From Candidatus Udaeobacter sp. (GTDB taxonomy: Bacteria > Patescibacteriota > Patescibacteriia > Magasanikbacterales > GWA2-37-8), in assembly GCA_035473115.1 (NCBI GenBank), contig DATION010000001.1, positions 461-64,460 on the forward strand: a stretch of DNA of 64,000 nt, in the 5' to 3' direction. A program made the position numbers and the translations under genes. Below the pieces are notes generated by a model. The model was not told the origin of the DNA, did no database searches, and saw only the letters and a program-made list of their open reading frames with translations. The number at the start of each line of letters is the position of its first letter. Position 1 is the stretch's first letter. This document shows positions 12,542 through 64,000 of the stretch, piece by piece.

Positions 12542-12557
12542 GGTTCGGTCTCCTGTA

Positions 12558-13883: not shown

Positions 13884-13946
13884 TTGTTTCCCTTTCAGTC
13901 GTAACTCTACGTGTCTGTATCAGCCATCCGAATTGATGGCGGCGCA

Positions 13947-13975
13947 ATCTTAGCAGATAGGCCAAAAAATGTCAA
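13947..13975 (-). promoter_or_regulatory. Sigma-70-type promoter for the RCC1 gene
   Basis: Minus strand: TTGACA, 17-nt spacer, TAAGAT. The same style of element recurs at the other GC-rich ORFs. Confidence 0.5.
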
Positions 13976-22298: not shown

Positions 22299-22320
22299 AA
22301 TTTTAAATAAAAATTAAAAC

Positions 22321-22355
22321 AAAAAACAGCCTTTGATTAAAACGCTGTTTTTTGT
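22321..22355. repeat. 35-bp perfect direct repeat, copy 1 (also the bidirectional terminator of proS and of the gene at 22462-23244)
   Basis: AAAAAACAGCCTTTGATTAAAACGCTGTTTTTTGT, identical to 23482-23516. Hairpin AACAGC/GCTGTT with A/T flanks. Confidence 0.8.
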
Positions 22356-22461
22356 TTTTGTCCCGACCCATGCTTCACAGCTTTGGTCAGGACGAGTTGA
22401 GTATCCGCTTCACTTCAGGAGAACGATTTCGTTCTCAGTGAAGTAGAAGTCGGATCTTCTG

Positions 22462-23244: not shown

Positions 23245-23444
23245 CTGATGTCTCCTGTTGAAGTTGCGGTTGCCCGCACTTCTTCAGGTTGAACACCATT
23301 TGCCATGACGTTGACGTGCGGGGGAAATTGTCTTTTGTACTTCCCCTTTATAACTTCCAGATCATGTTGGTTTTCTCCTTCTCGGGTGGTTTTCCCGCAA
23401 AAAATAGTTATGGATAATTAGCTTTTGCAGAAAAACAACTGTAA

Positions 23445-23473: not shown

Positions 23474-23481
23474 GATGGAAC

Positions 23482-23516
23482 AAAAAACAGCCTTTGATTA
23501 AAACGCTGTTTTTTGT
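23482..23516. repeat. 35-bp perfect direct repeat, copy 2 (terminator of the gene at 23566-24258)
   Basis: Identical 35-mer to 22321-22355. The flanks differ. Confidence 0.8.
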
Positions 23517-23565
23517 GTTGGCCACGACTCCCTCCGTGAGTCATGGCGGATGTTGTACAACTACT

Positions 23566-24258
23566 TCAGCCGCCCTTTTTTCCTCGGCCCCCGCGCGCTG
23601 CCGCGCGGTGAACTTTGGCTCTCGCTGCCTTGTAGGCAGCGTGGGCCTTGGCCCCCGCGCTTGTGCCCGTGCTGGACTGCTTCGGCTGGTTCTCCTCGAG
23701 CCACTTCTCGTCCTGACAGCCATCGGCCATGCAGAACTTGAAGGAGACGGGGATCACTGCCTGGCAGCCCTGGCCAGAGCATCGGTGTCCGCAGTCCGAA
23801 CAGTAGTTCGGACCTTCGACTGGGAGTTCCGCGCCGCATCCATTCCCTTTGCAGAGTTTGGTAGTTGGCGCGAAGCTCTTGCATCCTTGGCAGAGCGGGT
23901 ACCATGTCGGGATCTGCCGACCACATCCACCCTTGCATGGGTGAATGCAGTCGTCACAGAGACCGAATCGTTTCCCGACCCGCACCTGGTTGGTGCATTG
24001 AGTGCCAGTTTCCGGATGTTCCCGGTTGCGGCACTGCTGGGTCTGGACAACGACTCGATCGGCCTTGGGTGGCGGTGCAGACTTCATGATGGTTGGTTCG
24101 GGCGTTGTTGCATCGCCCTCCTCCATCACAGCCGTGTGGATGGTCGCCTGTGGCGAGGCCGCTGGCGCCTCGCAGTTGGCGACTGCCTGGACAGGCTGGG
24201 TCTGCATGAGCACAGCAGAGAGAACTTCTTCCAGAACGTTGACGAGATCAGTGAGCAT
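23566..24258 (-). CDS. GC-rich Cys-rich hypothetical protein (multiple CxxC pairs)
   Basis: Start placed at MLTDL (24258), which has an AGGAGA SD 6 nt upstream. The ORF track extends it to 24303. CDDC, CQGC, CSDC and related pairs suggest zinc-ribbon-like modules. Confidence 0.45.
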   Translation of the reverse strand: MLTDLVNVLEEVLSAVLMQTQPVQAVANCEAPAASPQATIHTAVMEEGDATTPEPTIMKSAPPPKADRVVVQTQQCRNREHPETGTQCTNQVRVGKRFGLCDDCIHPCKGGCGRQIPTWYPLCQGCKSFAPTTKLCKGNGCGAELPVEGPNYCSDCGHRCSGQGCQAVIPVSFKFCMADGCQDEKWLEENQPKQSSTGTSAGAKAHAAYKAARAKVHRAAARGGRGKKGG

Positions 24259-24516
24259 GAGAATCTCCTCGTGGGATGTAGTGAACGGGAATGAACCGCA
24301 CACTACTTCCCTGAGAGATCATCTCGTGATCACTAGGTTGATGTGCGGTAGATATTCACAAGCATAAAGCTTCAACGAAAATTTGGTTGTCGTTCCATGA
24401 TCCCCTCCGTAGGTAATTGTACAATGAACGCGGAAACGGCCGTCCGAAGGACAGTTATTCCGACGGAAAGAATTTTTTCCTTTCCCTAGGAACAACTTTC
24501 ATATGAGTAATAAAAG

Positions 24517-24610: not shown

Positions 24611-25027
24611 TTAAAGATTTTCATCCTTTCGGCGCAGTATTCTCCAGTGAAATATAAATAAAGGGATGGCAACTACAATCAGGGAAATATCACGAACTAC
24701 GCTCATCTGTTTTTGCGCCAAGCGGCTGGCTTCTTGCTGCTTAGCATTGATCTCATTTTGTTTTTCGCATTGCTCTTTAGGCATTGTGGTAATGGTATTG
24801 TCCGGGCCAGGTCTAACAGCTACGGTGGTAGTTGTTAGATCTGCGCAGACCATAGGAATCGAGTAGTATATATTTTTGTCTGCCTGAGTAAACACCCAAG
24901 TTTTTAAAGCGATATTTATAATATCGGAAGTAGAAAATACCAGGATCATTAAGGCTACAAAAGATACCAAATAAAAGTATAAATTTTTTATAGTTTTTCC
25001 GGTTGATGCTGTAGGTTGATTATCCAT
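24611..25027 (-). CDS. Small membrane protein (2 TM)
   Basis: 138 aa. Hydrophobic helices near both termini. Confidence 0.45.
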   Translation of the reverse strand: MDNQPTASTGKTIKNLYFYLVSFVALMILVFSTSDIINIALKTWVFTQADKNIYYSIPMVCADLTTTTVAVRPGPDNTITTMPKEQCEKQNEINAKQQEASRLAQKQMSVVRDISLIVVAIPLFIFHWRILRRKDENL

Positions 25028-33920: not shown

Positions 33921-34007
33921 GTTTAAGTAAAATTTACCTAAAACTAAGTGCATCGTTTTATTTTTTATGGTATAATAAAAACCAATAAAGAAAGCCACTT
34001 TATTTTT

Positions 34008-37000
34008 ATGAAGAGGGGACAAATTTTTAGTTTATACCCAGTTCTCTTCAAGAGAAAATTAAAGAGATTATTTTTGTTGTTTAAAGAAAAATATAATCCG
34101 CATTTAATAATTATAAAAAAGAAATTTCATGTTACGGTGGCGGTAATTTTACTGACAGTAATTTTGGTAAATTTATTTCAATTTTGGTCAGTGCCGATAG
34201 TTCAGGGTGCTACCTATACTTTTGTGCAAAGAGATTGGAGCGGAGGAGTTAGTAATTCTGTAATTGTTCATCCTGATAATCAAACCGGTTGGAATAGTTT
34301 TTCTACCAGCACAAATACCTTTACATCAGGAACCACCACAGTCTCTATCGCCAGCAGCACATACAGTTCTACTGACGACGGCACTTTTTCATCCACTGGC
34401 AGCGCAACTGGCGGCGGTTTTAGCAACGGTGCAACTTCCACTACTTCTATATCAGGCAGCGGCAGCTCTGCCTCCATTAAATTATCCGGTAGCACTACAG
34501 CGGTAAATCGTGTTACTGCCACAACTACAATGACTGGTGCTTTTTATCACGGAGGTGGTCAGATGGTTGGTGCTGCTGGATCTGATTATTTATATATTAT
34601 TGAAGGAGGTAATCGAGCTGCCCCACTGCGTCGTTTGACTATCTCAACTGCTGCTACTTCCAGTTTGGCCACTTATACCTATGCGTATTTTGGCGCTCAA
34701 TTGCTTTGGAATGGCAGTGATGATTATATTTATTTAGCTGAAGGGCAAAATGATAAATTTGATCGTTATTCAATATCAGGTAATTCATGGACTTCAATGG
34801 CTAATTTTCCGGCATCTTTACCAACTGATGTTTCAGAAACTGCTGCTTTACGTTACAACACAGAAGATTACATTTATTTTTTTAGAGGCAGCAGATTTGC
34901 TGATTTTTACCGTTACTCAATCAGCGGCAACAGTTGGTCTTCACTAACCTCATTACCAATAGTAGCTGGTTATGGTATTCAGGCAACAAGAGATGCAAAC
35001 AGCGATAGTATATATGTTTTACCTGCCAATGGTACTAATTTTTATCGCTATTCTATCGCTGGAGATTCGTGGACATCTATGGCAGCTGTTCCTTTATCTT
35101 TTGGTACTACTACAAATGCCGGTATTTTGCATGATGAAGGCAGTGATTATATTTATCTTTTAGTCGGAGATCATCTGTATAGGTATTCAATTAGTGGTAA
35201 CTCCTGGACAACTATGGCTGACGCTTCGTCGGTAAATCCTGATTTTGGTACAACATTATTGCATACTGCCGGCGAAGACACAATTTATGTGACTGGCCAA
35301 TGGGATTGTTGTGCTTCTGTGAGGGTATGGGCATATTCTATTAGCGGCGACAGCTGGACACAGTATGCTATAGTTTCAAACCATAGTGGTGGTTATGGTT
35401 CGCCAAATAAAACAGCTTTTCGTCGTACTTCTGATGAGTCTTTTTATTTTATTACGGCTGCTGGTGGAGATAGTGAAGTGTTCAAATATACAATTAGTCA
35501 AACGATATATAATTCTTCTGGCAACTTTACATCTGCCAGCCTGGATTTAGGGGTTGCCAAAATGAATTCTTTGTCTTGGACCAGCACAACTCCGTCCGGA
35601 GTTGGGAGTAATTCAATCCAATTCCAACTAGCTGCCAATAATGATAACAGTACTTGGAATTATGTTGGTCCGGATGGCACAAATTCTACATTTTTTACTA
35701 GTAACGGCACAACTTCTTTTCCTTCATCTCTGCTAAACAAAAGATATTGGCGGTATAAAGCATTTTTAACTACTGCTGATACCACTGTTTCGCCATCGTT
35801 AGACAGCGTTACTTTTTCTTATTCCTCTTACGCAACCTCTAGCTCTTTAATTTCCTCTATATACGATACGGTTGATCCAACAAATGTTTTGGCCAGCATT
35901 GGTTGGAGCCCATTTTTGCCAACTAGCACTACTATTAAATTTCAACTGCGCACCGGATCTAGCACCTCCAGTATAAACTCGGCCACCTGGGTTGGTCCGG
36001 ATGGTACAGCCTCCACTTTTTTTACTAATAGTTCCGGAGAGACTACCACTTCCACTATGCGTGATGGATCCGGTGATAGATATTTCCAGTACAAGGCTTT
36101 CTTACAAACCACAAATCCTGCATTTACGCCGGTCCTTTCCAGCGTTACTAGCACCTATGTAGTTAATGCTAATCCGGAAATTCAAAATGTTTCCGCCAGT
36201 GAAAATGGTAGTGGTGTAGTAACTATTACTTATCAAGCCAGAGATCCTGATACTAGCACAGGTACTGTTAATCCGGGCTTTGTCAGCTCCACGTTTGAAT
36301 ACTTAGACGCCAACGGCGCTTATCAAACTATACCTGCCAATCAGCTTTCAGCCGGAGCAAATAGTAATTTGGCTGTTCAAGGAGTTAACTGGACTACCTC
36401 TACTGTTAGTTGGACATTGCCGTCCGGGCTTAATATTGCCGCTAGTCGGATAAGAGTAACGGTAAATGATAATGAAGCGGCGAATAACACCGCTGCCTCT
36501 TCTTCGCCTACCTTTCAGATAGATAGCGTTGCTCCATCGGCAACATCAGTAATTGTGGATGGTTCCCAAACACCAGCTCTGCTTACTTTTAATGTCAGTG
36601 ATAGTTCTACTTTATTCATGAAAGTTTCGGAAAATAGTACCTTATCAGATGTTTCTACCTGGTCAGCTTTTACAGCCACTACCACATTTACACTGAGTTC
36701 TAATCCAGATACAGTTTATGCTCAGTTTAAAGATGTTTATGGTAATACCTCAACTATTGTTCATGCCACGACACCGCAAACCCCAAATAGTTTTATCGTT
36801 CAGGATAATTCCAATGTTTTAAATGGCGCTACTGATTATCGTCTTTTTGTAGCTTGGAGAGTAGTGGCTACTCCTAGTCCGGGCTTTGGCAGCTATAAAG
36901 TTTATCGATCTGAGGATCAATCCACCTGGACTTTAATTTCAACCATTAGTTCTATCAGTGATAATTTCGTTACTGACAATACCACTGTTTCAAATACTCT

Positions 37001-40000
37001 TTACTATTATAAAGTAAAAACTGTTGATGCGGATGGCAACACTTCAGTTTTTTCTTCCATTGTAAATGGGCGCGCTAATGGCGCCCAAGATGCTGGTGAA
37101 GGTGGAGGCGGGTCAGGTGTAGGCAGCGATCCGGTTATTACTTCGGTCGCCACTTCTTCACCTACTCCATCTTCTATCACCATTACTTGGGATACGGATG
37201 CTTTATCTAATTCTGTTGTTGGTTTTTCTACTACCCCAGGAAATTTTACCGATAATACCGTGACGGTTAATTCCATGGTAAATAATTCTTCCGGAGTAGG
37301 AAATCACAATGTGGTTTTGGGAGGACTTGTTCCAAATACTACTTATTATTTTAATGTAAAATCTGTTTCCGCCAGCAACGCTTCTTCAACCGATAGTAAT
37401 GGCGGTAATGGTTATATTTTTACCACTCCTTCCGGCCCGACTATTACCGGGGTTTCGGCCGTAGAAGTTAATAATACTTTTGCCAGAGTAGTTTGGAGTA
37501 CTTCAGAAAATTCTAACAGTTCAGTAATTTATTCCACTTCCACAAGCTTAACCAACTCTGTAACCACCAGTTCTGTTCAAATGGGCACTGCCCATGATAT
37601 GACTTTAACTGGTTTAACAGCCGGTACGAGATATTATTTTTACGTTCAATCGGTCAACGGATCCGGAGTAACTTCCACAGATAAAAATTTAGTAGGTGGC
37701 ATACTTCAATATTTTAATTTGGCGACTACTCTAGACAGCACCGGTCCGACAATTTCTTCCATTGCCACCACTACCAGCGATAACTCGGCTAACATTACTT
37801 GGAACACAAACGAAAGCGCCGATTCGCAAATTATTTATGGTCTTACGACTAGTTATGGCTCCACTACTACTTTAGATAGTACTTTTACTACTCAACATTT
37901 AATGACTCTCTCGGGACTTAGTTCTTCAACAGCTTATCATTTCAAAATATTATCCAGAGATAAAAATAATAATTTAACAGCTTCAGCTGATCAATTAATA
38001 ATTACTTCCGCTACTCCCGATACTACCGCGCCAATTATTACTAGTGTTGCCACCTCTAGCGTATCTCTGACCGGCGCCACTGTTACTTGGACAACAGACG
38101 AGTTAGCTTCCTCAATTGTTGAATACGGTATTACCACTTCTTCATATAGCAGTCTGGCTGGTTCAAATTCCGATTCAGTCACTTCGCATTCTGTTTCTTT
38201 AGCTAGTCTGAGCGGCAATACTGCTTATTATTTTAGAGTTAGATCAGCTGATTCGGCCGGCAATTCGGCCATGAGTGATAATAGCGGCCAGGGCTGGCAA
38301 TTTGTTACCGTAGCCGATACCACTGGTCCGGTAATTTCGGATGTAAATCTTTTGGTCAATGATACTTCGGTAGCAATTTCTTGGACAACCAATGAGCCGG
38401 CTAGTTCAGAAGTTGATTATGATACAACTTCCAGTACATTCGGTTTTTCTAGCTCCACTGCTTCACTCGTTACCAACCATACAATTACTATTACCGGTTT
38501 AACAACTAATGTTACTTATTTCTTCCGCCTAAAATCCACGGATAGTGCTGGTAATACTACTATAGATAATAATGGCGGTGCTGCTTATAGCTTTACTACT
38601 CAACAGACTCCGGGCTTGGTTAGAGTAGGTGGCGGCGGTGGCGGAGCGCCAAGAGATACCGATCCTCCGGAAATTAGCAATCTTAGCATAACCGATATTG
38701 CTCCTAGCTCAGCTAGTGTTATTTGGCAAACCAGTGAAGATGGTAATTCTTTGGTACGGTTTGGATCAAGTATTAAATATGGAACTTTAACCGGTAATGA
38801 TTCAGAACTGCTTACTTCCAAACATAATGTCAGTCTGTTTGATTTAAAACCAGGACAAACCTATCATCTAAGAGCCGTAACTTATGATGCTGCCGGTAAT
38901 CGCGCCGAATCAATCGATAAAACTTTTTCAACTTTGAATTCAGACGGTTCGGAAGTTACCCCAAGCACTAGCACCGAAAAGACACCGGAAGAAGAGGTGA
39001 CTCCGGAAACCCAATTTATATCCGATTCTTTGCAGAAGGCTTCAAGTCAATCTTTGCAAAAGTTCCTAGCTGATATAGCTTCTAATCCATTCTTGAAAAA
39101 TATTCCTGAAGATAAGTTTATTCAAGCTATTTTCGAAATGACCAGTAAAGTAGTTGAAGCTCCGACCATCGTTGGAGTTAAACCGACAGTAGAAGTAAAA
39201 GGAACCTCCGCTCTTATTAGGTGGTCGACAGATAAAAAATCTTCCTCTGAGTTAAACTATGCCAGAGATGTTGATTATAAGCCTGCTTCTAATAACGCTT
39301 ACACTAACGCAGCTGTTAATCCGGATGAATTTAGTGTTAACCATTCTGTACAATTAACTGGTCTTGATCCGGGAGTCTTATATCACTTTAAAGTAAGTTC
39401 AAAAGGCTTAATTGGTCCGGCAGCTGTCAGCGGTGACTATACTTTCTTAACCACCGGTGATCTGCCGATAATTTCCAATATTAAAGTGGCCAGACCAACT
39501 GAATCGCAGTCTTCTATCATAGTTGATTGGAGAACCAATATTCCGACTGCCGGTACCGTAGAATATAAGAATGTTAAATCCGGACAATCCTTGACCCAAG
39601 GAGACGAAACATTGCTCGTTAATCATGAAGTTGCTCTCAAAGGTTTGGAGGGCGGCGTAAATTATACTTTAGTTATCAAAGCTAGAGATGAATTCAAAAA
39701 CGAAGTTGCCAGTTTGCCGATAACATTCTCCACTCTTTTAGATAAGATAAGTCCGGTAATAACTAAACTTTCTTCCGAATCAACTTTATACCCGGGTAAA
39801 GATTCTAAAGTTCAAACTATTATTTCTTGGGAGACAGATGAGCCGGCTACTTCTCAAGTGTTCTATCAGGAAGGTTTGGCTGGTGATAATGTAATTTCGT
39901 TGCCGCTAGACACCTCGCTTAATACTCGCCACGTGGTGGTAATAACCAAATTTAAACCTGGCACAGTTTATAAATATTGGGTAGAATCAAAGGATCTGGC

Positions 40001-40124
40001 AGGCAATAATGGAAAGTCAGAAATATTTTCTATTCTTACGCCGCAGCAAAAAGAAACGATTGTTGATATTATTATTAATAATTTCCAATCAGTGTTTGGC
40101 TGGACAAAGAATATAGGTTTGTAG
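34008..40124 (+). CDS. Giant (about 2,038 aa) cell-surface protein: N-terminal TM anchor, Kelch-like beta-propeller repeats, then an array of fibronectin-III-like domains
   Basis: Start at the ATG downstream of an extended -10 (TGGTATAAT, about 33963-33971). Repeated YRYSISGNSWT blades. Many FN3-like units (VTWTTDE...S.VEYG..., ARVVWSTSENS...). Gly runs. Ser/Thr-rich. Confidence 0.7.
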   Translation: MKRGQIFSLYPVLFKRKLKRLFLLFKEKYNPHLIIIKKKFHVTVAVILLTVILVNLFQFWSVPIVQGATYTFVQRDWSGGVSNSVIVHPDNQTGWNSFSTSTNTFTSGTTTVSIASSTYSSTDDGTFSSTGSATGGGFSNGATSTTSISGSGSSASIKLSGSTTAVNRVTATTTMTGAFYHGGGQMVGAAGSDYLYIIEGGNRAAPLRRLTISTAATSSLATYTYAYFGAQLLWNGSDDYIYLAEGQNDKFDRYSISGNSWTSMANFPASLPTDVSETAALRYNTEDYIYFFRGSRFADFYRYSISGNSWSSLTSLPIVAGYGIQATRDANSDSIYVLPANGTNFYRYSIAGDSWTSMAAVPLSFGTTTNAGILHDEGSDYIYLLVGDHLYRYSISGNSWTTMADASSVNPDFGTTLLHTAGEDTIYVTGQWDCCASVRVWAYSISGDSWTQYAIVSNHSGGYGSPNKTAFRRTSDESFYFITAAGGDSEVFKYTISQTIYNSSGNFTSASLDLGVAKMNSLSWTSTTPSGVGSNSIQFQLAANNDNSTWNYVGPDGTNSTFFTSNGTTSFPSSLLNKRYWRYKAFLTTADTTVSPSLDSVTFSYSSYATSSSLISSIYDTVDPTNVLASIGWSPFLPTSTTIKFQLRTGSSTSSINSATWVGPDGTASTFFTNSSGETTTSTMRDGSGDRYFQYKAFLQTTNPAFTPVLSSVTSTYVVNANPEIQNVSASENGSGVVTITYQARDPDTSTGTVNPGFVSSTFEYLDANGAYQTIPANQLSAGANSNLAVQGVNWTTSTVSWTLPSGLNIAASRIRVTVNDNEAANNTAASSSPTFQIDSVAPSATSVIVDGSQTPALLTFNVSDSSTLFMKVSENSTLSDVSTWSAFTATTTFTLSSNPDTVYAQFKDVYGNTSTIVHATTPQTPNSFIVQDNSNVLNGATDYRLFVAWRVVATPSPGFGSYKVYRSEDQSTWTLISTISSISDNFVTDNTTVSNTLYYYKVKTVDADGNTSVFSSIVNGRANGAQDAGEGGGGSGVGSDPVITSVATSSPTPSSITITWDTDALSNSVVGFSTTPGNFTDNTVTVNSMVNNSSGVGNHNVVLGGLVPNTTYYFNVKSVSASNASSTDSNGGNGYIFTTPSGPTITGVSAVEVNNTFARVVWSTSENSNSSVIYSTSTSLTNSVTTSSVQMGTAHDMTLTGLTAGTRYYFYVQSVNGSGVTSTDKNLVGGILQYFNLATTLDSTGPTISSIATTTSDNSANITWNTNESADSQIIYGLTTSYGSTTTLDSTFTTQHLMTLSGLSSSTAYHFKILSRDKNNNLTASADQLIITSATPDTTAPIITSVATSSVSLTGATVTWTTDELASSIVEYGITTSSYSSLAGSNSDSVTSHSVSLASLSGNTAYYFRVRSADSAGNSAMSDNSGQGWQFVTVADTTGPVISDVNLLVNDTSVAISWTTNEPASSEVDYDTTSSTFGFSSSTASLVTNHTITITGLTTNVTYFFRLKSTDSAGNTTIDNNGGAAYSFTTQQTPGLVRVGGGGGGAPRDTDPPEISNLSITDIAPSSASVIWQTSEDGNSLVRFGSSIKYGTLTGNDSELLTSKHNVSLFDLKPGQTYHLRAVTYDAAGNRAESIDKTFSTLNSDGSEVTPSTSTEKTPEEEVTPETQFISDSLQKASSQSLQKFLADIASNPFLKNIPEDKFIQAIFEMTSKVVEAPTIVGVKPTVEVKGTSALIRWSTDKKSSSELNYARDVDYKPASNNAYTNAAVNPDEFSVNHSVQLTGLDPGVLYHFKVSSKGLIGPAAVSGDYTFLTTGDLPIISNIKVARPTESQSSIIVDWRTNIPTAGTVEYKNVKSGQSLTQGDETLLVNHEVALKGLEGGVNYTLVIKARDEFKNEVASLPITFSTLLDKISPVITKLSSESTLYPGKDSKVQTIISWETDEPATSQVFYQEGLAGDNVISLPLDTSLNTRHVVVITKFKPGTVYKYWVESKDLAGNNGKSEIFSILTPQQKETIVDIIINNFQSVFGWTKNIGL

Positions 40125-40158: not shown

Positions 40159-41496
40159 ATGGATCCGATTATTAAAACAGAAAACATTAAAGTTATTTAT
40201 AATAGAGGGCAGGATAATGAATATATCGCTCTTAATGATATAAGTATTGAGGTGTTTCCCCAGGAGTATACAATTTTTTTTGGACCTTCCGGCTGCGGGA
40301 AATCGACTTTGCTTTATACAATTCTTGGACTGCAAAGACTAAGCGAAGGAAAATTGTATATCCAGGGCCGGGATAGCGCCTCTTTTACAGAGGAAGAAAA
40401 GAGCAAGATGAGTTCACAGTTTTTTGGGATAGTTTTCCAAAATTTTAACTTGATATATTCTTTAAATGTTATTGATAATATCGCTCTGCCCCAGGTGTTT
40501 ATTGAAGCTAATCAGGAAGAAAGGCTGGCCAAAGCTCAAAGCCTGCTCACTCGTTTTGGCATAGCAACCAGAGCCAAGAATTTACCGGCATCTCTTTCGG
40601 GTGGTCAGCAGCAAAGAGTAGCCATTTGTCGATCTTTGATTAATGACCCTTTGATCCTTTTGGCTGATGAACCGGTTGGAAATTTGGATAGTGAATCTGC
40701 TAGAATAGTAATGCAATCGCTTTATGATATTAATAAGAAAGATAAAAAAACGGTAATTCTGGTTACTCACGATCCGAGCTATCTGCCATATGCCGACCGA
40801 GTCTATTATTTTAAAGATGCTAAGTTTGAAAAAGTTGTGCAAAATAGAAATCCTAAAAAAATGGTCAATGGCGGTATTGAAATTAAACCTAAGGGCAAAG
40901 AAGATGAAAACGGTGAATCTGATCTTTTGGGTGAATTAGAAAAATTAGCGCGAGTGCATCATTTTATGACCGTGCCTCAGTTAAAGGCTTGGAGCATAAC
41001 CAATTATCTGATCGATGATTTTACTATTAATCAGGTAGAAAGACTGGAACAATTTATGGAAGAAATGTTGGCTGGAAAATTAAGTCAGCATGCATTTTTT
41101 GAAAATCTAAATACCCCGTATAATGAAGGAGGCGTAGGTTTGTACAAAGGCACTGCTATCAGGTTCGTTAAAGAAACGGCCGCTATCTTAAAACAAGTCA
41201 ATGAATTTTTGGCAGAGGTAAAAAAGCATAATAATTCGGATAATAATATAAAAATATTGAGCATGTTAAGCAGATTCTTATTACAAGAACACCGGGGCAA
41301 TCTGAAAGCGGAAGAGATCGAAAGATTTGAAGCCGGCATCAGAGATCGTTTAAATGGCAGTATGAACTCTGTCCAGTTTAGTAAATTATTACATAAGCAT
41401 TTTGCAGATGGCGGCGTGGGGTTAAGCGTAACAACGGCCGAACATTTATCGGAGAGGCTGCAGATTATCCTGACCCAAGCTTATGAAGTACATTGA
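40159..41496 (+). CDS. ABC transporter ATP-binding protein (MacB/LolD-like) with a C-terminal extension of about 215 aa
   Basis: Walker A GPSGCGKST, signature LSGGQQQRV, Walker B LLADEP. Residues after about 230 have no recognised domain. Confidence 0.8.
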   Translation: MDPIIKTENIKVIYNRGQDNEYIALNDISIEVFPQEYTIFFGPSGCGKSTLLYTILGLQRLSEGKLYIQGRDSASFTEEEKSKMSSQFFGIVFQNFNLIYSLNVIDNIALPQVFIEANQEERLAKAQSLLTRFGIATRAKNLPASLSGGQQQRVAICRSLINDPLILLADEPVGNLDSESARIVMQSLYDINKKDKKTVILVTHDPSYLPYADRVYYFKDAKFEKVVQNRNPKKMVNGGIEIKPKGKEDENGESDLLGELEKLARVHHFMTVPQLKAWSITNYLIDDFTINQVERLEQFMEEMLAGKLSQHAFFENLNTPYNEGGVGLYKGTAIRFVKETAAILKQVNEFLAEVKKHNNSDNNIKILSMLSRFLLQEHRGNLKAEEIERFEAGIRDRLNGSMNSVQFSKLLHKHFADGGVGLSVTTAEHLSERLQIILTQAYEVH

Positions 41497-42682
41497 TCTG
41501 TTTTCTTTATCAACCAGAATGTTTCGCACTAATCCGTCACGTACCTGGCTGACAGTTTTAGGTATCAGTGTTGGAATTTCAGCAGTTTTATTTCTGGTCT
41601 CTTTTGGCTATGGGTTGCAGAATATTATTTTGCAAAAAATAGTTTTTAACCAGGCTTTGCTTAGTGTAGTGGTTACTCCCAGCAGTGACTTGATTGTTTT
41701 AGACGACCAGGCTTTGGCTGATATTGGTAAAATAAAAAATGTTGTTGATGTGGCCGGTTTGGCAAAATTTACAGGGCAGGTATCTCTGGACGGAATAAAT
41801 GGCACAGTCGATATGAGAGCGGTTAGCGCTTCTTTTTTGGCCTATGCCGGCACAATGGTAAAGTATGGAAATTTATACGAGGAAAAGGATCAAAATCAGA
41901 TTTTGATTTCTGACGCTGTTTTAAAATTATTTGGTATTACCGATGCCAGCACGGTGCTGGGAAAAAAAGTTAGTTTAAAAATTTTTGCCAATAAAAGCGG
42001 CGCCGATCAGTCGCAATTAGAAATTGTTGATATACCGGGCAGTTATACCATCAAAGGTGTTATAGAAGACAGCCAAGAGAGTTATATTTTTTTACCGCTT
42101 AAAGAAGTGACTCAGTATGTAAAAGTGGATCGTTATGAACAGGCACGGGTAAAAGTAAATAATAGTACTGATCTGGCGGGAGTCAAAGAAGAAGCTATAG
42201 CCAAAGGCTACCAAACCCAATCGCTATCGGAAACAATTGATCAAGCCAATAAAATCTTTCATGTGATCCAGATAGTCTTGGGTTTGTTTGGGGCCGTGGC
42301 TTTGATAGTTTCTTCTATCGGCATGTTTAATACGATGACTGTAACTTTGCTTGAACGTACCAATGAAATTGGTATTATGCGCGCTTTGGGAGCCAGCAAA
42401 TCAAATTTACGCAATTTATTTTTGGCTGAATCGGTAATCATTGGTTTTTTGGGCGGGTTGGTCGGCACGGCCTTGGGTATTATCGCCGGTCAAATTTTTA
42501 ATTTAATTATCAATGGTTTGGCTGCTAAGTTTGGCGGAGCCAAAATATCTTTATTTGTTTATCCAATTTCTTTTTTGTTAATAATTGTTTTCCTTTCATT
42601 ATTTATTGGTTTTTTGTCAGGAATATTTCCGGCGCGCCGGGCTGCAGGTATGGATCCGTTGGAAGCTTTGCGCTATAAGTAA
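41483..42682 (+). CDS. ABC transporter permease, FtsX/MacB family
   Basis: N-terminal TM, large periplasmic domain, C-terminal FtsX 3-TM bundle. Confidence 0.8.
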   Translation: MKYIDLFSLSTRMFRTNPSRTWLTVLGISVGISAVLFLVSFGYGLQNIILQKIVFNQALLSVVVTPSSDLIVLDDQALADIGKIKNVVDVAGLAKFTGQVSLDGINGTVDMRAVSASFLAYAGTMVKYGNLYEEKDQNQILISDAVLKLFGITDASTVLGKKVSLKIFANKSGADQSQLEIVDIPGSYTIKGVIEDSQESYIFLPLKEVTQYVKVDRYEQARVKVNNSTDLAGVKEEAIAKGYQTQSLSETIDQANKIFHVIQIVLGLFGAVALIVSSIGMFNTMTVTLLERTNEIGIMRALGASKSNLRNLFLAESVIIGFLGGLVGTALGIIAGQIFNLIINGLAAKFGGAKISLFVYPISFLLIIVFLSLFIGFLSGIFPARRAAGMDPLEALRYK

Positions 42683-53712: not shown

Positions 53713-54198
53713 ATGAGTAAACCAATGGGAAGAAGAAATGATAAGCCGAAAGAAAAACCTGAATTTGATCAGTATGTTTTAGATTTGGCTCGTGTTACCA
53801 GAGTAACTAAGGGCGGAAAGCATATGAGTTTCCGCGCTTGTATTATTTTAGGTGATCGTCGCGGCCGAGTTGGCTTTGGTTTAGCCAAAGGAAAAGATGT
53901 GCAGATCGGTGTAGAAAAAGCTGTTCATCAAGCCAAAAAGCATATGATCACAGTACCGATTGTGAATGGAACTATTCCTCATGCTATTATTTACAAATTT
54001 AAAGCAGCTACTGTATTTTTGAAGCCAGCGCCGCAAGGATCCGGTATTATTGCCGGCGGAGCTGTTCGCGCTATGTTGGAATTAGCCGGCATACCAAATG
54101 TCTCTTCTAAAATTTTAGGTAAAACAAAAAATAAAGTTACTATTGTTAAAGCCGCTTTCAACGCTTTGCAATTATTTAAAAAAGGATCAGAAAAATAG
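53713..54198 (+). CDS. rpsE: 30S ribosomal protein S5
   Basis: S5 family; conserved position after rplR. Confidence 0.9.
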   Translation: MSKPMGRRNDKPKEKPEFDQYVLDLARVTRVTKGGKHMSFRACIILGDRRGRVGFGLAKGKDVQIGVEKAVHQAKKHMITVPIVNGTIPHAIIYKFKAATVFLKPAPQGSGIIAGGAVRAMLELAGIPNVSSKILGKTKNKVTIVKAAFNALQLFKKGSEK

Positions 54199-54233
54199 AT
54201 TGTTTATAGCGTACCGTTTAATTAAAAATTCTT

Positions 54234-54674
54234 ATGACTCTACACGTACACACAATTAAACCGGCCAAAGGCTCAAAAAAACCAAAGAAAATTTTGGGCA
54301 GAGGCAACGCGTCTGGACACGGTACTACCGCCACTAGAGGTGGAAAGGGTCAAACCGCCAGATCCGGAGGCAGCCAGGGAACTCGCCGCCGCGGTTTTAA
54401 ATTCCAATTGCAATCAACTCCAAAATTACGCGGCTTTACCAGCTTAGAGAACAAGCCGGCCGAAGTATACTTAACCGACTTAGAACAGTCTTTTCAAGCC
54501 GGTGAAGTTGTCAATTTAGCTTCCTTAAAAGAAAAGAAATTGATCAGCGCCAGAGCCAAAGCAGCCAAAATTTTGTCAACCGGAGAAATAACTAAAAAAT
54601 TGGTTATTGAAGGAGTTGCTAGTTCTGCTAGCGCTGCCGACAAAATTAAAGCTGTAGGCGGAGAAATAAAATAG
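54234..54674 (+). CDS. rplO: 50S ribosomal protein L15 (follows S5 directly; no L30 gene)
   Basis: Gly/Arg-rich L15 N-terminus. Only 35 nt separate it from rpsE. Confidence 0.9.
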   Translation: MTLHVHTIKPAKGSKKPKKILGRGNASGHGTTATRGGKGQTARSGGSQGTRRRGFKFQLQSTPKLRGFTSLENKPAEVYLTDLEQSFQAGEVVNLASLKEKKLISARAKAAKILSTGEITKKLVIEGVASSASAADKIKAVGGEIK

Positions 54675-61451: not shown

Positions 61452-61483
61452 AAGAGGTCAAAGAAAATCAAGTTAAACAAAAA

Positions 61484-61557
61484 AACCGCTAATCTTAGCG
61501 GTTTTTTTGTTTTATAACAATAGGAGTATTGACTAAAAGTTAAAAGTAGTATATATT
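61484..61557 (+). promoter_or_regulatory. Cassette 1 terminator-promoter unit
   Basis: Hairpin ACCGCTAA-TCT-TAGCGGT with A6/T7 flanks (also the asnS terminator). Then TTGACT (61529), 17-nt spacer, TATATT (61552). Confidence 0.6.
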
Positions 61558-61602
61558 TGTGGCGCATGGCAACACGCCATGAATGCTAACAAGGAGATAT
61601 AG

Positions 61603-62124
61603 ATGAAGACCCTTCTGTTGACACTGGCATTCCTCCTCCCGATGGTAGCCCCTGGCTGTGCCATAGAGCCCGAAGGAGGCAGTGCCCCACCCGATGCGAG
61701 TGCGGCTCCGGCTCCGACTGCTGACAAGCCGACGGCCAGTACTCGTACGTCAGATCCCGATGAGGGGTTTCGCCAGGACTGCGACTGGTTTCCAGATCAG
61801 CAGGTCTGCGGGGAAGATGGCGGAGGCGGTGGTGGTGGAGGTGGCGGCGGAGGCGGTGGTTCGTCATGCTGGATGAGCTGCTCACCTTACACGTGTTGGC
61901 TCTACCTGGATGGTGCCCTTCATTGGACGTTCCAGTGTACTACTGGTTCGGGAAACAGCACCTGCTCAAGTTCGGGGTGCGGTTCATGTCCGGCTCAGGG
62001 CGTGACCCCAGGATGCATCACCGGTTGTGGCAATGGTGGGGGGGACGACTACGCTCTGGCATTGTGCCGAGCTACTTGCTGGATCAATTCAACCTCTACA
62101 TGCTCAGGTGGCTACACGTCATAG
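61603..62124 (+). CDS. GC-rich secreted Cys-rich protein with a poly-Gly tract (paralog of 63218-63724)
   Basis: Signal peptide ending APGC. Pro/Ala-rich linker. G16 run. C-terminal domain with about 14 Cys. AGGAG SD. Confidence 0.6.
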   Translation: MKTLLLTLAFLLPMVAPGCAIEPEGGSAPPDASAAPAPTADKPTASTRTSDPDEGFRQDCDWFPDQQVCGEDGGGGGGGGGGGGGGSSCWMSCSPYTCWLYLDGALHWTFQCTTGSGNSTCSSSGCGSCPAQGVTPGCITGCGNGGGDDYALALCRATCWINSTSTCSGGYTS

Positions 62125-62189
62125 TAACTTAGTGTATTAGTAGAACCGCACCGCGCAAGTGGTGACGCTTCTCCGATACTAGATGGCCC

Positions 62190-62235
62190 GGACCCGGTGC
62201 AGCACGAAGTGCAGCCCGGGTCCTTTGTTTTATTG
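62190..62235 (+). terminator. GC-rich terminator of cassette 1
   Basis: GGACCCGG...CCGGGTCC followed by TTTGTTTTATT. Confidence 0.55.
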
Positions 62236-62286
62236 ATCAATTTTAAAATAATTTCTAAGATTTTTATAAAAAATTAAATTTAATGT

Positions 62287-62367
62287 ATAGAAAAATCGCT
62301 AATTTTAGCGATTTTTTTGTATTTTTTACAAAAGGGTATTGACAAAAAAATTAAAATAGTGTATATT
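62287..62367 (+). promoter_or_regulatory. Cassette 2 terminator-promoter unit
   Basis: Hairpin ATCGCTAA-TTT-TAGCGAT with A/T flanks. Then TTGACA (62339), 17-nt spacer, TATATT (62362): a perfect consensus -35. Confidence 0.6.
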
Positions 62368-62437
62368 TCTTTTCGCCTGGCAATTAGTTGTCGGGTACGC
62401 GGCGATCATGCCGTGGTTACAGGAGGTTCTAGTAAGA

Positions 62438-62623
62438 ATGAAGAAGGCAATCAAGACGTCGCTCACGTTGAACAGCGAGACCGTTCGGCAGCTCGGCACC
62501 ACCGAGCTGAAGGGGGTCGTCGGCGGTTACCAAACCGCCACCCGTGGCAACACGGACTGTGCCTCCGAAGCGACGGGGTGCTACACGACCGAATGGTCGT
62601 GTCCGGGCTGGAGCTGCTGGTAG
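62438..62623 (+). CDS. Double-glycine-leader peptide precursor (bacteriocin- or RiPP-like), 61 aa
   Basis: AGGAGG SD 10 nt upstream. Leader MKKAIKTSLTLNSETVRQLGTTELKGVVGG fits the LxxxELxxVxGG motif. The 31-aa core is Thr/Ser-rich with 4 Cys (...EWSCPGWSCW). Confidence 0.55.
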   Translation: MKKAIKTSLTLNSETVRQLGTTELKGVVGGYQTATRGNTDCASEATGCYTTEWSCPGWSCW

Positions 62624-62948
62624 CAGCCACACCCCTTGATTCCATCACCGAATGGAAACCACCAACAATGGGAGGGCATAATATGCGAACATCGAACCAG
62701 TGACCTTTGGCTATCGTCGCACGAGATCCGTTCGTTTCGAGAAGTTTGGCGACTGTTGGTCGCCTGGTTACATGGTTACGAAAATCGCTGACCTTCCGCA
62801 AGGATCAGTCAGCACCGCTGCCCATCACTGATGGGCAAACACACGAACGGAGCTCCGCAAGAGCTCCGAAACAGTGAGGACAACTGAGTGTGTCCGGAGA
62901 AGCTCGGCCGCGCAAGCAGCAGTACTTCTCCGACACCACACGACCCCG

Positions 62949-62983
62949 ACCCGGTGCACGAGCACCGGGTTCTCTGTTTTTAT
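62949..62983 (+). terminator. GC-rich terminator of cassette 2
   Basis: CCCGGTGC-ACGA-GCACCGGG followed by TTCTCTGTTTTTATT. Confidence 0.55.
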
Positions 62984-63081
62984 TAAGGAGTTGTTAAGAT
63001 TAAATCGGCCTTTTATTTTATTTATTATTTTCAATAATTTTTGATATTTTAGTAAAAAATTAAATTTGACTTGGAGAAAAA

Positions 63082-63159
63082 ACTGCTAGCTCTAGTGGTT
63101 TTTTTGGTTTTATAAAAATGGAGAGGGGTATTGACCGAAAGTCAAAAGTAGTGTATATT
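63082..63159 (+). promoter_or_regulatory. Cassette 3 terminator-promoter unit
   Basis: Hairpin ACTGCTAG-CTC-TAGTGGT with A6/T7 flanks. Then TTGACC (63131), 17-nt spacer, TATATT (63154). Confidence 0.55.
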
Positions 63160-63217
63160 TGCTCCGCCCAACAATTTTGTTTGGGTACAGTAACCTCCCC
63201 CCGTATAGGAGATACAA

Positions 63218-63724
63218 GTGCAGAATAGTGTCAAGAAGAAGTTTGAGATCATGAAGACGGCAGCGTTCGTTCTGGCTCTGGCCTCAGGCTCCGCCTGTGC
63301 CATTCCCGACGGACCCAACACCTCAGATGCGGGTACCGATCCCACTGGGAGTTCCACGGTGTCGTTGCAAGAGCAGCAGGACTGCAATGCCGACCCATCA
63401 TCATGTTGGGGAGGTGGCGGTGACCCCAGTGGTGGAGGAGGTGGTGGCGGCGGAGGAGGTGCGGTGTGCGTTGCAGATACATGTTACCCCAAACTGTGTT
63501 CGTACGATCAGGATACGCACGGAAATTGGGGGTATTGGTGCATTAAGCACCCAGCTGCCGACGCGGGCTGCTATTCGAGTGGGTGCAACAAGTGCGCGCC
63601 TGCAGCTGCGGGTGCGAACAAGCCCTGTTTTGATCACTGCTACACCCTTCCTACTCAATACCAATGGGCGGTGTGCGCGGCAGGTTGCGGAAACTCAACT
63701 CCCAGCGTCTGTGTCAGCATTTGA
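63218..63724 (+). CDS. GC-rich secreted Cys-rich protein with a poly-Gly tract (paralog of 61603-62124)
   Basis: GTG start 5 nt after an AGGAGA SD. Signal peptide ...LALASGSAC. G-rich run. C-terminal domain with about 14 Cys. Confidence 0.55.
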   Translation: MQNSVKKKFEIMKTAAFVLALASGSACAIPDGPNTSDAGTDPTGSSTVSLQEQQDCNADPSSCWGGGGDPSGGGGGGGGGGAVCVADTCYPKLCSYDQDTHGNWGYWCIKHPAADAGCYSSGCNKCAPAAAGANKPCFDHCYTLPTQYQWAVCAAGCGNSTPSVCVSI

Positions 63725-63911
63725 GACGCTGGCCCCTTTCGATCCTATGGCATGACATAGTCAGCTAGGCTCGTCCTAGCTGGCGCCCACACTGGATGGG
63801 CAAATCACACGCGTTCTTCGGAGCGCGCGAACAAGTGAGAACAACTGAACGGTCGTTCGGAGGAGTGCCACGCGCAAGCGATTGGCGTTGCTCCGACACC
63901 AGATGACCCCG

Positions 63912-63950
63912 ACCCGGCGCAGCACCAAGAGTGTAGCGCCGGGTCTCTGT
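63912..63950 (+). terminator. GC-rich terminator of cassette 3
   Basis: ACCCGGCGC...GCGCCGGGT followed by CTCTGTATTTAT. Confidence 0.5.
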
Positions 63951-64000
63951 ATTTATAGGCATATTCAATTGACAAAGACTTATCGTTCAACTATACTGCT

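What the first reader, a model, noticed from the sequence alone, without database searches (positions are those of the whole stretch)
62438..62623. Double-glycine-leader peptide gene (bacteriocin- or lanthipeptide-like precursor) with no cognate export or modification genes in the window
The precursor reads MKKAIKTSLTLNSETVRQLGTTELKGVVGG | YQTATRGNTDCASEATGCYTTEWSCPGWSCW. The leader fits the double-glycine motif LxxxELxxVxGG, a family normally cleaved by peptidase-containing ABC transporters (PCATs).

The 31-aa core has 9 Ser/Thr and 4 Cys. That composition suits either a lanthipeptide core or a disulfide-bonded class II bacteriocin.

The gene has a perfect consensus promoter and an AGGAGG SD. 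No PCAT, LanB/C/M or immunity gene is nearby, so this is an orphan precursor. The only ABC system in the window is MacB/FtsX-type. About 230 nt of GC-rich sequence follow the stop before the conserved 3' block; they may be the remnant of a longer ancestral ORF.
Basis: partly seen in the sequence, partly recalled or inferred. Interest (0 to 1): 0.7.

Follow-up and report, generated by a model that had tools for sequence, protein, structure and literature searches.

The report
Phage-type double-glycine peptide gene, captured
The small gene is real: it belongs to an undescribed family of cysteine-rich peptides with a double-glycine leader, otherwise found as lone genes in uncultivated phage genomes, and here it sits as foreign GC-rich DNA in a strong expression cassette of an AT-rich, CPR-like bacterium.

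Summary
The ORF at 62438-62623 exists as described: a 30-aa leader with L(-12)xxxE(-8)L(-7)xxV(-4)xGG and a 31-aa core with 9 Ser/Thr and 4 Cys. It is not a chance ORF or a fragment. A full HMMER scan and a profile search found about 35 stand-alone homologues of 56-84 aa. All share [AI]T[DRN]G[ND][TN][GD]CxSEA[TG]GC after the Gly-Gly, plus two more Cys. A profile built without the focal peptide scores it at 76 bits.

No family member carries a specific function name (JGI calls some 'hypothetical protein'). All ten genomic contexts read are phage-like, and four loci lie in IMG/VR. None has a PCAT, Lan enzyme, rSAM enzyme or conserved neighbour within 5-10 kb. Orphan status is therefore a family trait.

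In the window the gene is foreign: GC3 is 0.86 against about 0.32 in housekeeping genes. It is the middle of three tandem cassettes, each with a native-type promoter, 5' hairpin, SD, ORF and structured 3' block with terminator. The two flanking ORFs encode secreted Cys-rich proteins.

The 'remnant of a longer ORF' idea is not supported. Whether the peptide is disulfide-bonded or lanthionine-bridged, and who cleaves it, remains open.

The parts
62285..62322 (+). AT-rich terminator-like hairpin between cassette 1 and cassette 2
   Evidence: The terminator scan reports it. It is conserved in all three cassettes (alignment A2).
62339..62367 (+). Sigma-70-type promoter, TTGACA - 17 nt - TATATT
   Evidence: It matches 11 of 12 positions. 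A 33-nt pattern around it occurs exactly 3 times in the window against 0 expected. The same TTGACA-N17-TAnnnT type precedes housekeeping operons: 11 sites against 0.7 expected.
62375..62415 (+). Two 5'-UTR hairpins; the first lies at the 5' end of the predicted transcript
   Evidence: RNA fold gives -23.8 kcal/mol, z = -2.6. All three cassettes keep a 5'-proximal hairpin although the sequences differ.
62421..62426 (+). Shine-Dalgarno AGGAGG, 11 nt before the ATG
   Evidence: Read from the sequence. The AGGAG is invariant in alignment A2.
62438..62527 (+). Leader part of the ORF (residues 1-30), ending in Gly-Gly
   Evidence: NF038153 lant_leader_L1a scores 21.1 bits against a cutoff of 22. The leader shows the LxLxxx5L...GG pattern reported for Bacteroidetes class I LanAs (PMC7268733). 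The L(-12)/E(-8)/L(-7) consensus is also present.
62528..62623 (+). Core part of the ORF (residues 31-61) plus the stop; carries the family motif ATRGNTDCASEATGC and WSCPGWSC
   Evidence: The invariant family columns T35, G37, C41, S43, E44, A45, G47, C48 and C60 are all present. The leave-one-out profile scores 76 bits. GC3 is 0.855.
62624..62780 (+). Cassette-specific 3' spacer, 50% GC, predicted to be highly base-paired; no evidence that it codes
   Evidence: The c1/c3 proteins and the phage loci show no similarity to it. It forms part of a 362-nt 3' UTR fold with z = -6.7.
62781..62947 (+). Conserved structured 3' block: a series of hairpins, several closed by GCAA-type loops
   Evidence: nhmmer finds it only at the three cassette ends. 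A 27-nt core pattern occurs 3 times against 0 expected. The hairpins are kept between cassettes 2 and 3, with 8 pairs changed on both sides. There is no Rfam match.
62948..62981 (+). Intrinsic terminator (GC-rich stem followed by a T run)
   Evidence: Reported by the terminator scan.
61475..62234 (+). Sister cassette 1: same scaffold; ORF 61603-62124 encodes a secreted poly-Gly, Cys-rich protein of 173 aa
   Evidence: The protein has no homologue in the word-indexed search.
63077..63957 (+). Sister cassette 3: same scaffold; ORF 63218-63724 is a distant paralogue of the cassette 1 protein (31% identity)

Best explanation
The ORF is an intact, horizontally acquired member of an undescribed family of 56-84-aa peptides. 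Each has a double-glycine leader and a four-cysteine core that begins with the near-invariant motif ATxGxxxCxSEA(T/G)GC. Elsewhere the family occurs as a solitary accessory gene in uncultivated phage genomes.

In this AT-rich, CPR-like genome the foreign ORF sits in the middle of three tandem expression cassettes. Each cassette has a host-type strong promoter, a 5' hairpin, an SD, an ORF, and a multi-hairpin 3' UTR with a terminator. The other two cassettes encode secreted Cys-rich proteins.

Proposed mechanism:
1. The gene is transcribed strongly as a stabilised monocistronic mRNA.
2. The 61-aa precursor is recognised through L(-12)/E(-8)/L(-7)/V(-4)/GG by a C39-type double-glycine peptidase or PCAT encoded elsewhere.
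3. It is cleaved after Gly30 and exported.
4. The roughly 31-aa product is locked by its four Cys (C41-C48 and C55-C60 as two loops) and acts outside the cell as an antagonistic or signalling peptide.

Shown here: the ORF, family membership, foreign composition, cassette anatomy, and the absence of partner genes both in the window and in the phage contexts. Inferred: transcription, cleavage, export, disulfide pattern and activity.
For: Family:
- 8 small-peptide hits in the exhaustive search and 36 in the profile search.
- Invariant columns are kept in 32 sequences.
- The leave-one-out score is 76 bits.

Double-glycine site:
- The position before the core is GG, GA, AG or AA in nearly all members (one has GV). 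It is followed by a linker of variable length.
- The focal leader fits the ComA consensus and the Bacteroidetes class I LanA leader pattern.
- NF038153 scores just below its cutoff.

Phage origin of the family. All contexts are dense arrays of small unannotated ORFs with phage hallmarks:
- phrog_2319
- D5 primase
- Gp80
- DnaB and PDDEXK
- YqaJ, RecT and CHAP
- terminase and ERF
- four IMG/VR loci

Orphan rule: the recorded Pfam hits and my PHROG scan of a few neighbours show no C39, Lan or rSAM gene within 5-10 kb. Divergent loci share no consistently conserved neighbour.

Foreign origin: GC is 0.63 and GC3 0.855, against GC3 of 0.28-0.37 in seven housekeeping genes.

Cassette:
- define the scaffold.
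- The promoter type is native to the genome.
- The sister cassettes encode proteins with N-terminal signal peptides and many Cys. That fits an extracytoplasmic destination for the whole array.
Against: - No PCAT or C39 peptidase is present in the 64-kb window. The rest of the genome could not be examined because the genome is not in the collections.
- In phages the gene lies among early and recombination genes: after RecT in L019 and after ERF in L020. That position would also suit an intracellular role.
- The SD-to-ATG distance of 11 nt is longer than optimal.
- No leader HMM reaches its curated cutoff, and only 4 of 32 members touch NF038153 at E <= 0.01.
- AlphaFold gives no confident fold for the core: pLDDT is below 50.
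- There are no expression data.
Confidence: 0.5

Rival explanations
1. It is a class I lanthipeptide-type precursor. LanB/LanC enzymes encoded elsewhere, in this genome or for the phage copies in the host, would dehydrate the invariant Thr35 and Ser43 and link them to Cys41 and Cys48 as thioether rings. Further rings would form at the C-terminus before cleavage at the double glycine.
For: - NF038153 (class I lanthipeptide leader L1a) is the best family hit, at 21.1 bits against a cutoff of 22.
- The distant relatives P0037-P0039 carry PF28317 Lant_leader_dom. NCBI names P0037 a class I lanthipeptide.
- The leader pattern LxLxxx5L...GG is the one reported for Bacteroidetes class I LanAs (PMC7268733).
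- Thr35 and Ser43 are invariant and lie 6 and 5 residues before invariant Cys.
Against: - No LanB or LanC is present in the window or within 5-10 kb in ten phage contexts.
- Pfam PF28317 does not hit the focal peptide even at E <= 1.
- The Ser/Thr next to the two C-terminal Cys are not conserved: MGC...MAC in P0003, ERC...RHC in P0005.
- The Thr of 'ATGC' is Gly in several members.
- A core motif more conserved than the leader is unusual for lanthipeptide precursors (my own knowledge).
Confidence: 0.2
2. It is an intracellular phage-type accessory protein, for example a small Cys4 metal-binding regulator or an anti-defence or host-takeover factor. The N-terminal 'leader' would be an interaction helix and would not be cleaved or exported.
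For: - Every homologue context is a phage genome. The gene sits among early, replication or recombination genes.
- It never has a transporter beside it.
- There are four conserved Cys in C-x6-C ... C-x2-6-C spacing.
- AlphaFold models only the leader with moderate confidence.
Against: - The small-residue pair at the predicted cleavage site and the -4/-7/-12 hydrophobic pattern are kept across the family. A linker of variable length follows, which is typical of cleaved leaders.
- In this genome the gene shares its cassette scaffold with two signal-peptide proteins.
- No similarity to any solved Zn-binding domain was found; the best PDB E-value is 2.
Confidence: 0.15
3. It is a recently picked-up piece of foreign phage DNA that happens to sit behind a duplicated promoter. 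It has no function in this organism and is on its way to decay.
For: - Codon usage is unameliorated, with GC3 of 0.855.
- The SD-to-ATG spacing is sub-optimal.
- The 157-nt spacer has no discernible role.
- No partner genes are present.
- The scaffold was not found in any other genome or metagenome.
Against: - The ORF is intact and retains every invariant family residue.
- It is embedded precisely between a conserved promoter/5'-UTR/SD and a conserved 3' block and terminator.
- At least five other GC-rich genes in the window are likewise intact and carry host-type promoters.
Confidence: 0.1
4. It is a chance ORF, or a degraded fragment of a larger Cys-rich protein gene.
For: The sister cassettes encode larger Cys-rich proteins, and untranslated sequence follows the stop.
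Against: - The family profile scores 76 bits.
- The homologues are full-length stand-alone peptides of 56-84 aa with the same ends.
- The c1/c3 proteins show no similarity to any frame of cassette 2.
Confidence: 0.02

Closest known systems
Double-glycine-leader peptides exported by peptidase-containing ABC transporters (class II bacteriocins, ComC-type pheromones; substrates of ComA/LahT-type C39 domains)
   Same: - The leader is about 30 aa and ends in Gly-Gly.
- It has Leu(-12), Glu(-8), Leu(-7) and a hydrophobic residue at -4.
- It is followed by a small Cys-containing core.
   Different: - No PCAT lies beside the gene here or beside any of the ten homologues examined.
- The core starts with a 15-residue motif that is more conserved than the leader.
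- The family is carried by phages.
Class I lanthipeptide precursors with the Bacteroidetes-type LxLxKx5L...GG leader (NF038153 lant_leader_L1a, PF28317; pinensin group)
   Same: - It has the leader pattern and the GG end.
- Ser/Thr and Cys are present in the core.
- NF038153 is the best family hit.
   Different: - The score is below the cutoff, and PF28317 gives no hit.
- No LanB/LanC/C39 cluster is present.
- The Lys of the motif is Ser here and is variable across the family.
Bacteroidetocin-like disulfide-bonded peptide toxins with double-glycine leaders in Gram-negative bacteria (PMC6671954; only the title and abstract were seen)
   Same: It is a small peptide with a Gly-Gly leader. Cys residues could form disulfides, and it could have an antagonistic role.
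   Different: No sequence relationship was tested or seen. The conserved motif differs. The gene is carried by phages rather than encoded in a bacterial chromosome.
Phage morons (stand-alone accessory genes in phage genomes with their own regulatory signals)
   Same: - In phages the gene is a single, movable unit with no conserved neighbours.
- In L005 a hairpin and T-run follow it directly.
   Different: The copy in the window is in a cellular genome. It uses that genome's promoter type and shares a structured 3' UTR with two unrelated genes.
Integron gene cassettes
   Same: It forms part of a tandem array of short single-ORF units. The ORFs are unrelated or only distantly related, and each unit ends in a conserved, imperfectly palindromic 3' element.
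   Different: - Every unit has its own promoter and terminator.
- No integrase is present in the window.
- By eye, the 3' block shows no attC-like R''/R' core sites; this was not searched formally.
- The element was found nowhere else.

Membership tests
Double-glycine-leader (PCAT-substrate) peptides | The N-terminal leader ends in GG, GA or GS and is followed by the mature peptide | tested here: met
   Residues 29-30 are GG. The aligned position is GG, GA, AG or AA in nearly all of the 32 family members; one has GV.
Double-glycine-leader (PCAT-substrate) peptides | Recognition residues Leu(-12), Glu(-8), Leu(-7) and a hydrophobic residue at -4 | tested here: met
   L19, E23, L24 and V27 are present in the focal peptide. 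The consensus is taken from PMC6363468. Across the family, L(-12) and L/I(-7) are at least 90% conserved, while E(-8) is variable.
Double-glycine-leader (PCAT-substrate) peptides | A cognate C39-peptidase ABC transporter in the same locus or genome | tested here: not met
   None is present in the 64-kb window. None lies within 5-10 kb in ten homologue contexts. The rest of the genome cannot be tested with these tools.
Double-glycine-leader (PCAT-substrate) peptides | Cleavage after the Gly-Gly and export shown experimentally | not testable with these tools
   This needs biochemistry or mass spectrometry.
Class I lanthipeptide precursors, L1a leader type (NF038153 / PF28317) | The leader HMM scores above its curated cutoff | tested here: not met
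   NF038153 scores 21.1 bits against a cutoff of 22. Pfam gives no hit at E <= 1. Only 4 of 32 family members reach E <= 0.01.
Class I lanthipeptide precursors, L1a leader type (NF038153 / PF28317) | LanB dehydratase and LanC cyclase in the gene cluster | tested here: not met
   They are absent from the window and from all homologue contexts read.
Class I lanthipeptide precursors, L1a leader type (NF038153 / PF28317) | The core has Ser/Thr and Cys positioned to form thioether rings | tested here: inconclusive
   Invariant T35/C41 and S43/C48 could form rings. The other Ser/Thr are not conserved.
TIGR04149 GG-leader rSAM-modified RiPP precursors | The HMM scores above its cutoff and a radical-SAM maturase is adjacent | tested here: not met
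   The score is 17.6 bits against a cutoff of 25. No rSAM gene is present in the window or in the homologue contexts.
The newly delineated 'CxSEATGC' phage peptide family (this work) | A stand-alone peptide of 56-84 aa with leader, GG and [AI]T[DRN]G[ND][TN][GD]CxSEA[TG]GC, plus two further Cys | tested here: met
   All ten invariant columns are present. The leave-one-out profile scores 76 bits.
Integron gene cassette | A promoterless ORF followed by an attC site, with an integrase and attI nearby | tested here: not met
   The cassette has its own promoter and terminator. No integrase is among the ORFs scanned. The attC check was by eye only.

The most novel reading that the evidence does not exclude
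Phages of diverse, mostly GC-rich bacteria may carry a family of LanA-like orphan precursor peptides. These would rely on, or interfere with, their hosts' double-glycine peptidase or RiPP machinery, acting as phage-encoded toxins, signals or decoys.

An AT-rich CPR-type symbiont has captured one of them into a modular gene-capture and expression array. Foreign ORFs are slotted between a fixed promoter/5'-UTR/SD and a fixed structured 3' UTR. The symbiont would use this array to deploy borrowed secreted Cys-rich peptides on its partner or its competitors.

The cassette scaffold would then be a new kind of gene-capture or expression module, distinct from integrons.
Probability: 0.15. Interest if true: 0.8.

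Novelty: new variant of a known kind. Interest (0 to 1): 0.55.

Why it matters
Double-glycine-leader peptides are normally read as products of a local gene cluster. This family breaks that rule in three ways:
- It is always solitary.
- It is spread by phages.
- Its 'core' is better conserved than its leader.

If the peptides are matured in trans, phages would be moving ready-made substrates for host export or RiPP machinery between bacteria. That route for spreading toxins or signals has, to my knowledge, hardly been studied.

The window also holds several intact GC-rich foreign genes in a reduced AT-rich genome, each behind a native promoter. Three of them share a structured mRNA scaffold. 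This offers a concrete case for studying how CPR-like bacteria domesticate foreign DNA.

For RiPP and bacteriocin mining, the motif gives a new precursor family to search with.

Tried and rejected
Searches that found nothing:
- Exact-sequence look-ups of the peptide and of the neighbouring AsnRS returned no record. The source genome is not in the collection.
- The word-indexed homologue search found nothing for the peptide or for the cassette 1 protein. Only the exhaustive HMMER scan found the family.
- Three of its 11 hits (P0001, P0009, P0011) are long repeat proteins with additive spurious scores. I discarded them.
- The 3'-block DNA pattern gave only chance hits in GC-rich soil and Kocuria sequences in genome contigs and metagenome contigs. 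None resembles the block outside the pattern.
- Rfam gave nothing for the 5' or 3' elements at the gathering threshold or at the E-value threshold.
- Viral-contig scans for the other GC-island proteins (p245, p260, c3) found no real relatives. tblastn of all island proteins against the phage loci matched only the peptide.
- Cultured-phage (INPHARED) and plasmid (PLSDB) tblastn searches with the focal peptide or a family member (P0024, P0013) gave no match.
- A literature search for the motif and for phage-borne double-glycine or RiPP precursors found nothing relevant.
- A PDB profile search found nothing.

Analyses that were uninformative or negative:
- AlphaFold with the 32-sequence alignment gave a mean pLDDT of 60, with the core below 50, so no fold search was attempted.
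- A search for a conserved partner gene next to the phage copies found none.

Ideas considered and dropped:
- The ThiF-family gene at 19140-19943 as a possible RiPP enzyme. It is a generic E1-like adenylyltransferase far below every equivalog cutoff, lies 43 kb away, and has native composition.
- The MacB/FtsX ABC pair at 40159-42682 as the exporter. It has no C39 domain.
- The integron cassette model, rejected for the reasons given under Membership tests.

Full report
**1. The observation**

ATG is at 62438 and TAG ends at 62623, giving 61 codons that translate to the quoted sequence.

The leader places Leu at -12, Glu at -8, Leu at -7, Val at -4 and Gly-Gly at -2/-1. This is the recognition consensus of ComA-type double-glycine peptidases as summarised in PMC6363468. 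The 31-residue core has 9 Ser/Thr and 4 Cys.

Three details need correction:
- The promoter is TTGACA-17-TATATT, 11 of 12 matches, not a perfect consensus.
- AGGAGG (62421-62426) lies 11 nt before the ATG, 6 nt further than in the sister cassettes.
- The untranslated stretch after the stop is 157 nt up to the block shared with cassette 3, or 244 nt up to the block shared by all three cassettes. It is only 50% GC.

**2. The gene belongs to a real family**

Pfam and PHROGs give nothing for the peptide. The word-indexed search found nothing either.

An exhaustive phmmer scan of 1.84 billion representatives returned eight small peptides with E between 3e-7 and 9e-4. It also returned three long repeat proteins, which I discard as additive artefacts.

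A profile of these peptides retrieved 36 proteins of 56-84 aa. None carries a specific function name; JGI calls some 'hypothetical protein'.

In a 32-sequence alignment the invariant columns are L9, T35, G37, C41, S43, E44, A45, G47, C48 and C60. L19, L24 and C55 are at least 90% conserved. The family signature has these parts:
- a leader of the type K-L-x-L-x-x-E-T-(I/L)-R-x-L-x4-L-x2-(A/V)-x-G-G;
- a linker of 0-10 residues;
- the motif [AI]T[DRN]G[ND][TN][GD]CxSEA[TG]GC;
- a variable tail with two more Cys, either WSCxxxSC or HTGWTACGTC.

A profile built without the focal peptide scores it at 76 bits over its full length. It is the only hit among 1354 six-frame ORFs of the window.

The homologues are stand-alone peptides with the same ends. 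This refutes the 'fragment of a larger protein' scenario. The c1 and c3 proteins also find nothing in any frame of cassette 2.

**3. Where the family lives**

I read nine metagenomic contigs carrying homologues, plus one group of four IMG/VR viral loci. All are phage-like: dense, mostly co-oriented small ORFs without Pfam hits, GC between 44% and 70%. The hallmarks by contig are:

| Locus | Size | Phage hallmarks |
|---|---|---|
| L005 | 10 kb | none scored; dense small ORFs |
| L006/L007 | 127/87 kb | strong hit to the phage-only family phrog_2319 |
| L008 | 98 kb | weak tail-fibre-chaperone hit |
| L009 | 96 kb | Gp80, SNF2 helicase, methyltransferase |
| L014 | 78 kb | TnpB |
| L015 | 68 kb | D5 primase |
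| L018 | 44 kb | DnaB, PDDEXK |
| L019 | 29 kb | YqaJ, RecT, CHAP, a 1609-aa protein |
| L020 | 44 kb | large terminase, ERF, DnaB, MazG |
| L010-L013 | up to 65 kb | classified as viral contigs by IMG/VR |

In no case is a C39/PCAT, LanB/C/M or rSAM gene recorded within the 5-10 kb read on each side. Divergent loci share no consistently conserved neighbour. The gene therefore behaves as a solitary accessory gene. It often lies in the early or recombination module, after RecT in L019 and after ERF in L020.

Cultured-phage and plasmid collections hold no member. I found no literature on the motif.

The distant relatives P0037-P0039 carry PF28317, and NCBI names P0037 a 'class I lanthipeptide' from Kofleriaceae. 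P0037 sits in a cellular context, also without Lan enzymes nearby.

**4. The setting in the window**

The window is a cellular genome of about 38% GC. It carries ribosomal-protein operons, SecY, EF-G, several aminoacyl-tRNA synthetases and other housekeeping genes. The S5 gene is followed directly by L15 with no L30 gene between them, and a DUF5671 protein is present. These traits fit a CPR/Patescibacteria-type organism. That assignment is an inference, not a demonstration.

The focal ORF has GC of 0.63 and GC3 of 0.855. Seven housekeeping genes have GC3 of 0.28-0.37. The ORF is therefore foreign and little ameliorated.

It is the middle of three tandem units: 61475-62234, 62285-62981 and 63077-63957. 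The three share:
- an AT-rich terminator hairpin;
- a promoter (a 33-nt pattern with 3 matches against 0 expected);
- a 5'-proximal hairpin kept in structure but not in sequence;
- AGGAG;
- a GC-rich 3' block of several hairpins, some closed by GCAA or UUCG loops, ending in an intrinsic terminator.

Folding z-scores are -6.7 for the 3' UTR of cassette 2 and -4.5 for that of cassette 3. Eight pairs change on both sides between cassettes 2 and 3. With only three copies, this is suggestive rather than proof of a selected structure.

The scaffold occurs nowhere else in the window or in the phage loci. Pattern scans of genome and metagenome collections found only chance hits. Rfam has no match.

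The TTGACA-N17-TAnnnT promoter type is native to the genome. There are 11 sites against 0.7 expected, in front of housekeeping operons as well as the GC-rich genes.

Cassettes 1 and 3 encode distantly related proteins (31% identity) with signal peptides, a poly-Gly stretch and a Cys-rich domain. Neither has a detectable homologue.

**5. How it most likely works**

*Shown:*
- The gene is an intact family member.
- It sits behind a strong native promoter and SD.
- It lies in an mRNA bracketed by 5' and 3' hairpins and a terminator.
- Its two sister cassettes encode exported Cys-rich proteins.

*Inferred:*
- The mRNA is abundant and stable.
- The precursor is cleaved after Gly30 by a C39-type peptidase or PCAT encoded elsewhere, and is exported.
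- The four conserved Cys form two loops, C41-x6-C48 and C55-x4-C60. The second pair is spaced CxxC to Cx6C in other members.

*Why I favour cleavage:*
- The site keeps small residues across the family.
- The -4, -7 and -12 positions are kept.
- A linker of variable length separates the site from the conserved motif.

*What weakens it:* no peptidase has been found, and in phages the gene lies among early genes.

*The lanthipeptide rival.* The leader resembles the LxLxKx5L...GG leader of Bacteroidetes class I LanAs (PMC7268733). NF038153 scores 21.1 bits against a cutoff of 22. Thr35 and Ser43 are invariant. However, no Lan enzyme accompanies any member, and the other Ser/Thr are dispensable.

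*Other rivals.* An uncleaved intracellular role, and a non-functional passenger, remain possible.

**6. Comparison with known systems**

The peptide works like a double-glycine-leader peptide. It meets the sequence criteria of that kind but fails the criterion of a cognate transporter in the locus.

It fails the curated cutoffs of NF038153, PF28317 and TIGR04149, so it should not be filed as a lanthipeptide or an rSAM-RiPP precursor.

The cassette array resembles an integron only superficially. Each unit has its own promoter and terminator, and no integrase is present.

**7. Verdict**

The new information is fourfold:
- The peptide defines an undescribed family.
- That family is borne by phages.
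- Its members are always solitary.
- The copy here is foreign DNA installed in a three-slot expression scaffold of an AT-rich genome.

I rate it a new variant of a known kind, of moderate to good interest. Function and maturation are unproven.

Noticed in passing
window 12480-13960, 22370-23300, 23520-24300, 61580-63960: Six intact GC-rich genes (59-63% GC; GC3 0.57-0.86) are embedded singly or in tandem in a 38% GC housekeeping background. They are an RCC1-repeat secreted protein (12558-13883, minus strand), a 260-aa coiled-coil protein (22462-23244, minus strand), a 245-aa Cys-rich protein (23566-24303, minus strand) and the three cassette ORFs. The three outside the array have a perfect TTGACA -35 box with a 17-nt spacer; the cassette promoters are TTGACT, TTGACA and TTGACC. 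Most have an AT-rich terminator hairpin nearby. This looks like repeated domestication of foreign genes.
   Followed up: partly
window 62781-62981, 63726-63957, 62120-62234: A conserved multi-hairpin 3' block ends all three cassettes. It has GCAA/UUCG-type loops, a CGCGCAAG hairpin and a CTCCGAYAC...GACCCGG motif that runs into the terminator. It is strongly structured (z = -6.7 and -4.5), has no Rfam match, and was not found in any other sequence searched.
   Followed up: partly
window 22318-22367 and 23479-23528: A 50-nt direct repeat (92% identical) contains a terminator hairpin. One copy lies on each side of the GC-rich 260-aa gene, and the second copy separates it from the next GC-rich gene. 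This points to a second, different repeated scaffold around foreign genes.
   Followed up: no
window 13672-13762 (minus strand): ARAGORN calls a 91-nt tRNA-Ser(GCT) inside the RCC1-repeat ORF. Rfam does not confirm it at the gathering threshold, so it is probably a false positive in GC-rich repeat sequence.
   Followed up: partly
window 54198-54234: The ribosomal protein S5 gene is followed after 35 nt by L15, with no L30 gene between them. Together with a DUF5671 protein (24611-25027), this fits a CPR/Patescibacteria-type genome.
   Followed up: partly
window 33948-40124: A 2058-aa protein carries many purple-acid-phosphatase-N and fibronectin-III repeats. The MacB/FtsX-type ABC pair (40159-42682) follows it directly. 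The ATPase has an extra C-terminal region of about 220 aa with no family match.
   Followed up: no
window 63969-63997: Another near-consensus promoter (TTGACA-17-TATACT) starts right after cassette 3, at the very end of the window. The array, or a further gene, may continue beyond base 64000.
   Followed up: no
window 14519-14920 (minus strand): An avidin-family protein (Pfam E = 6e-28) is encoded close to the RCC1 island. That is an uncommon gene for a small AT-rich genome.
   Followed up: no
L019 5482-7433; L020 8780-10222: In two unrelated phage contigs the peptide gene lies one small ORF downstream of a single-strand-annealing recombinase: RecT in L019 and ERF in L020.
   Followed up: no
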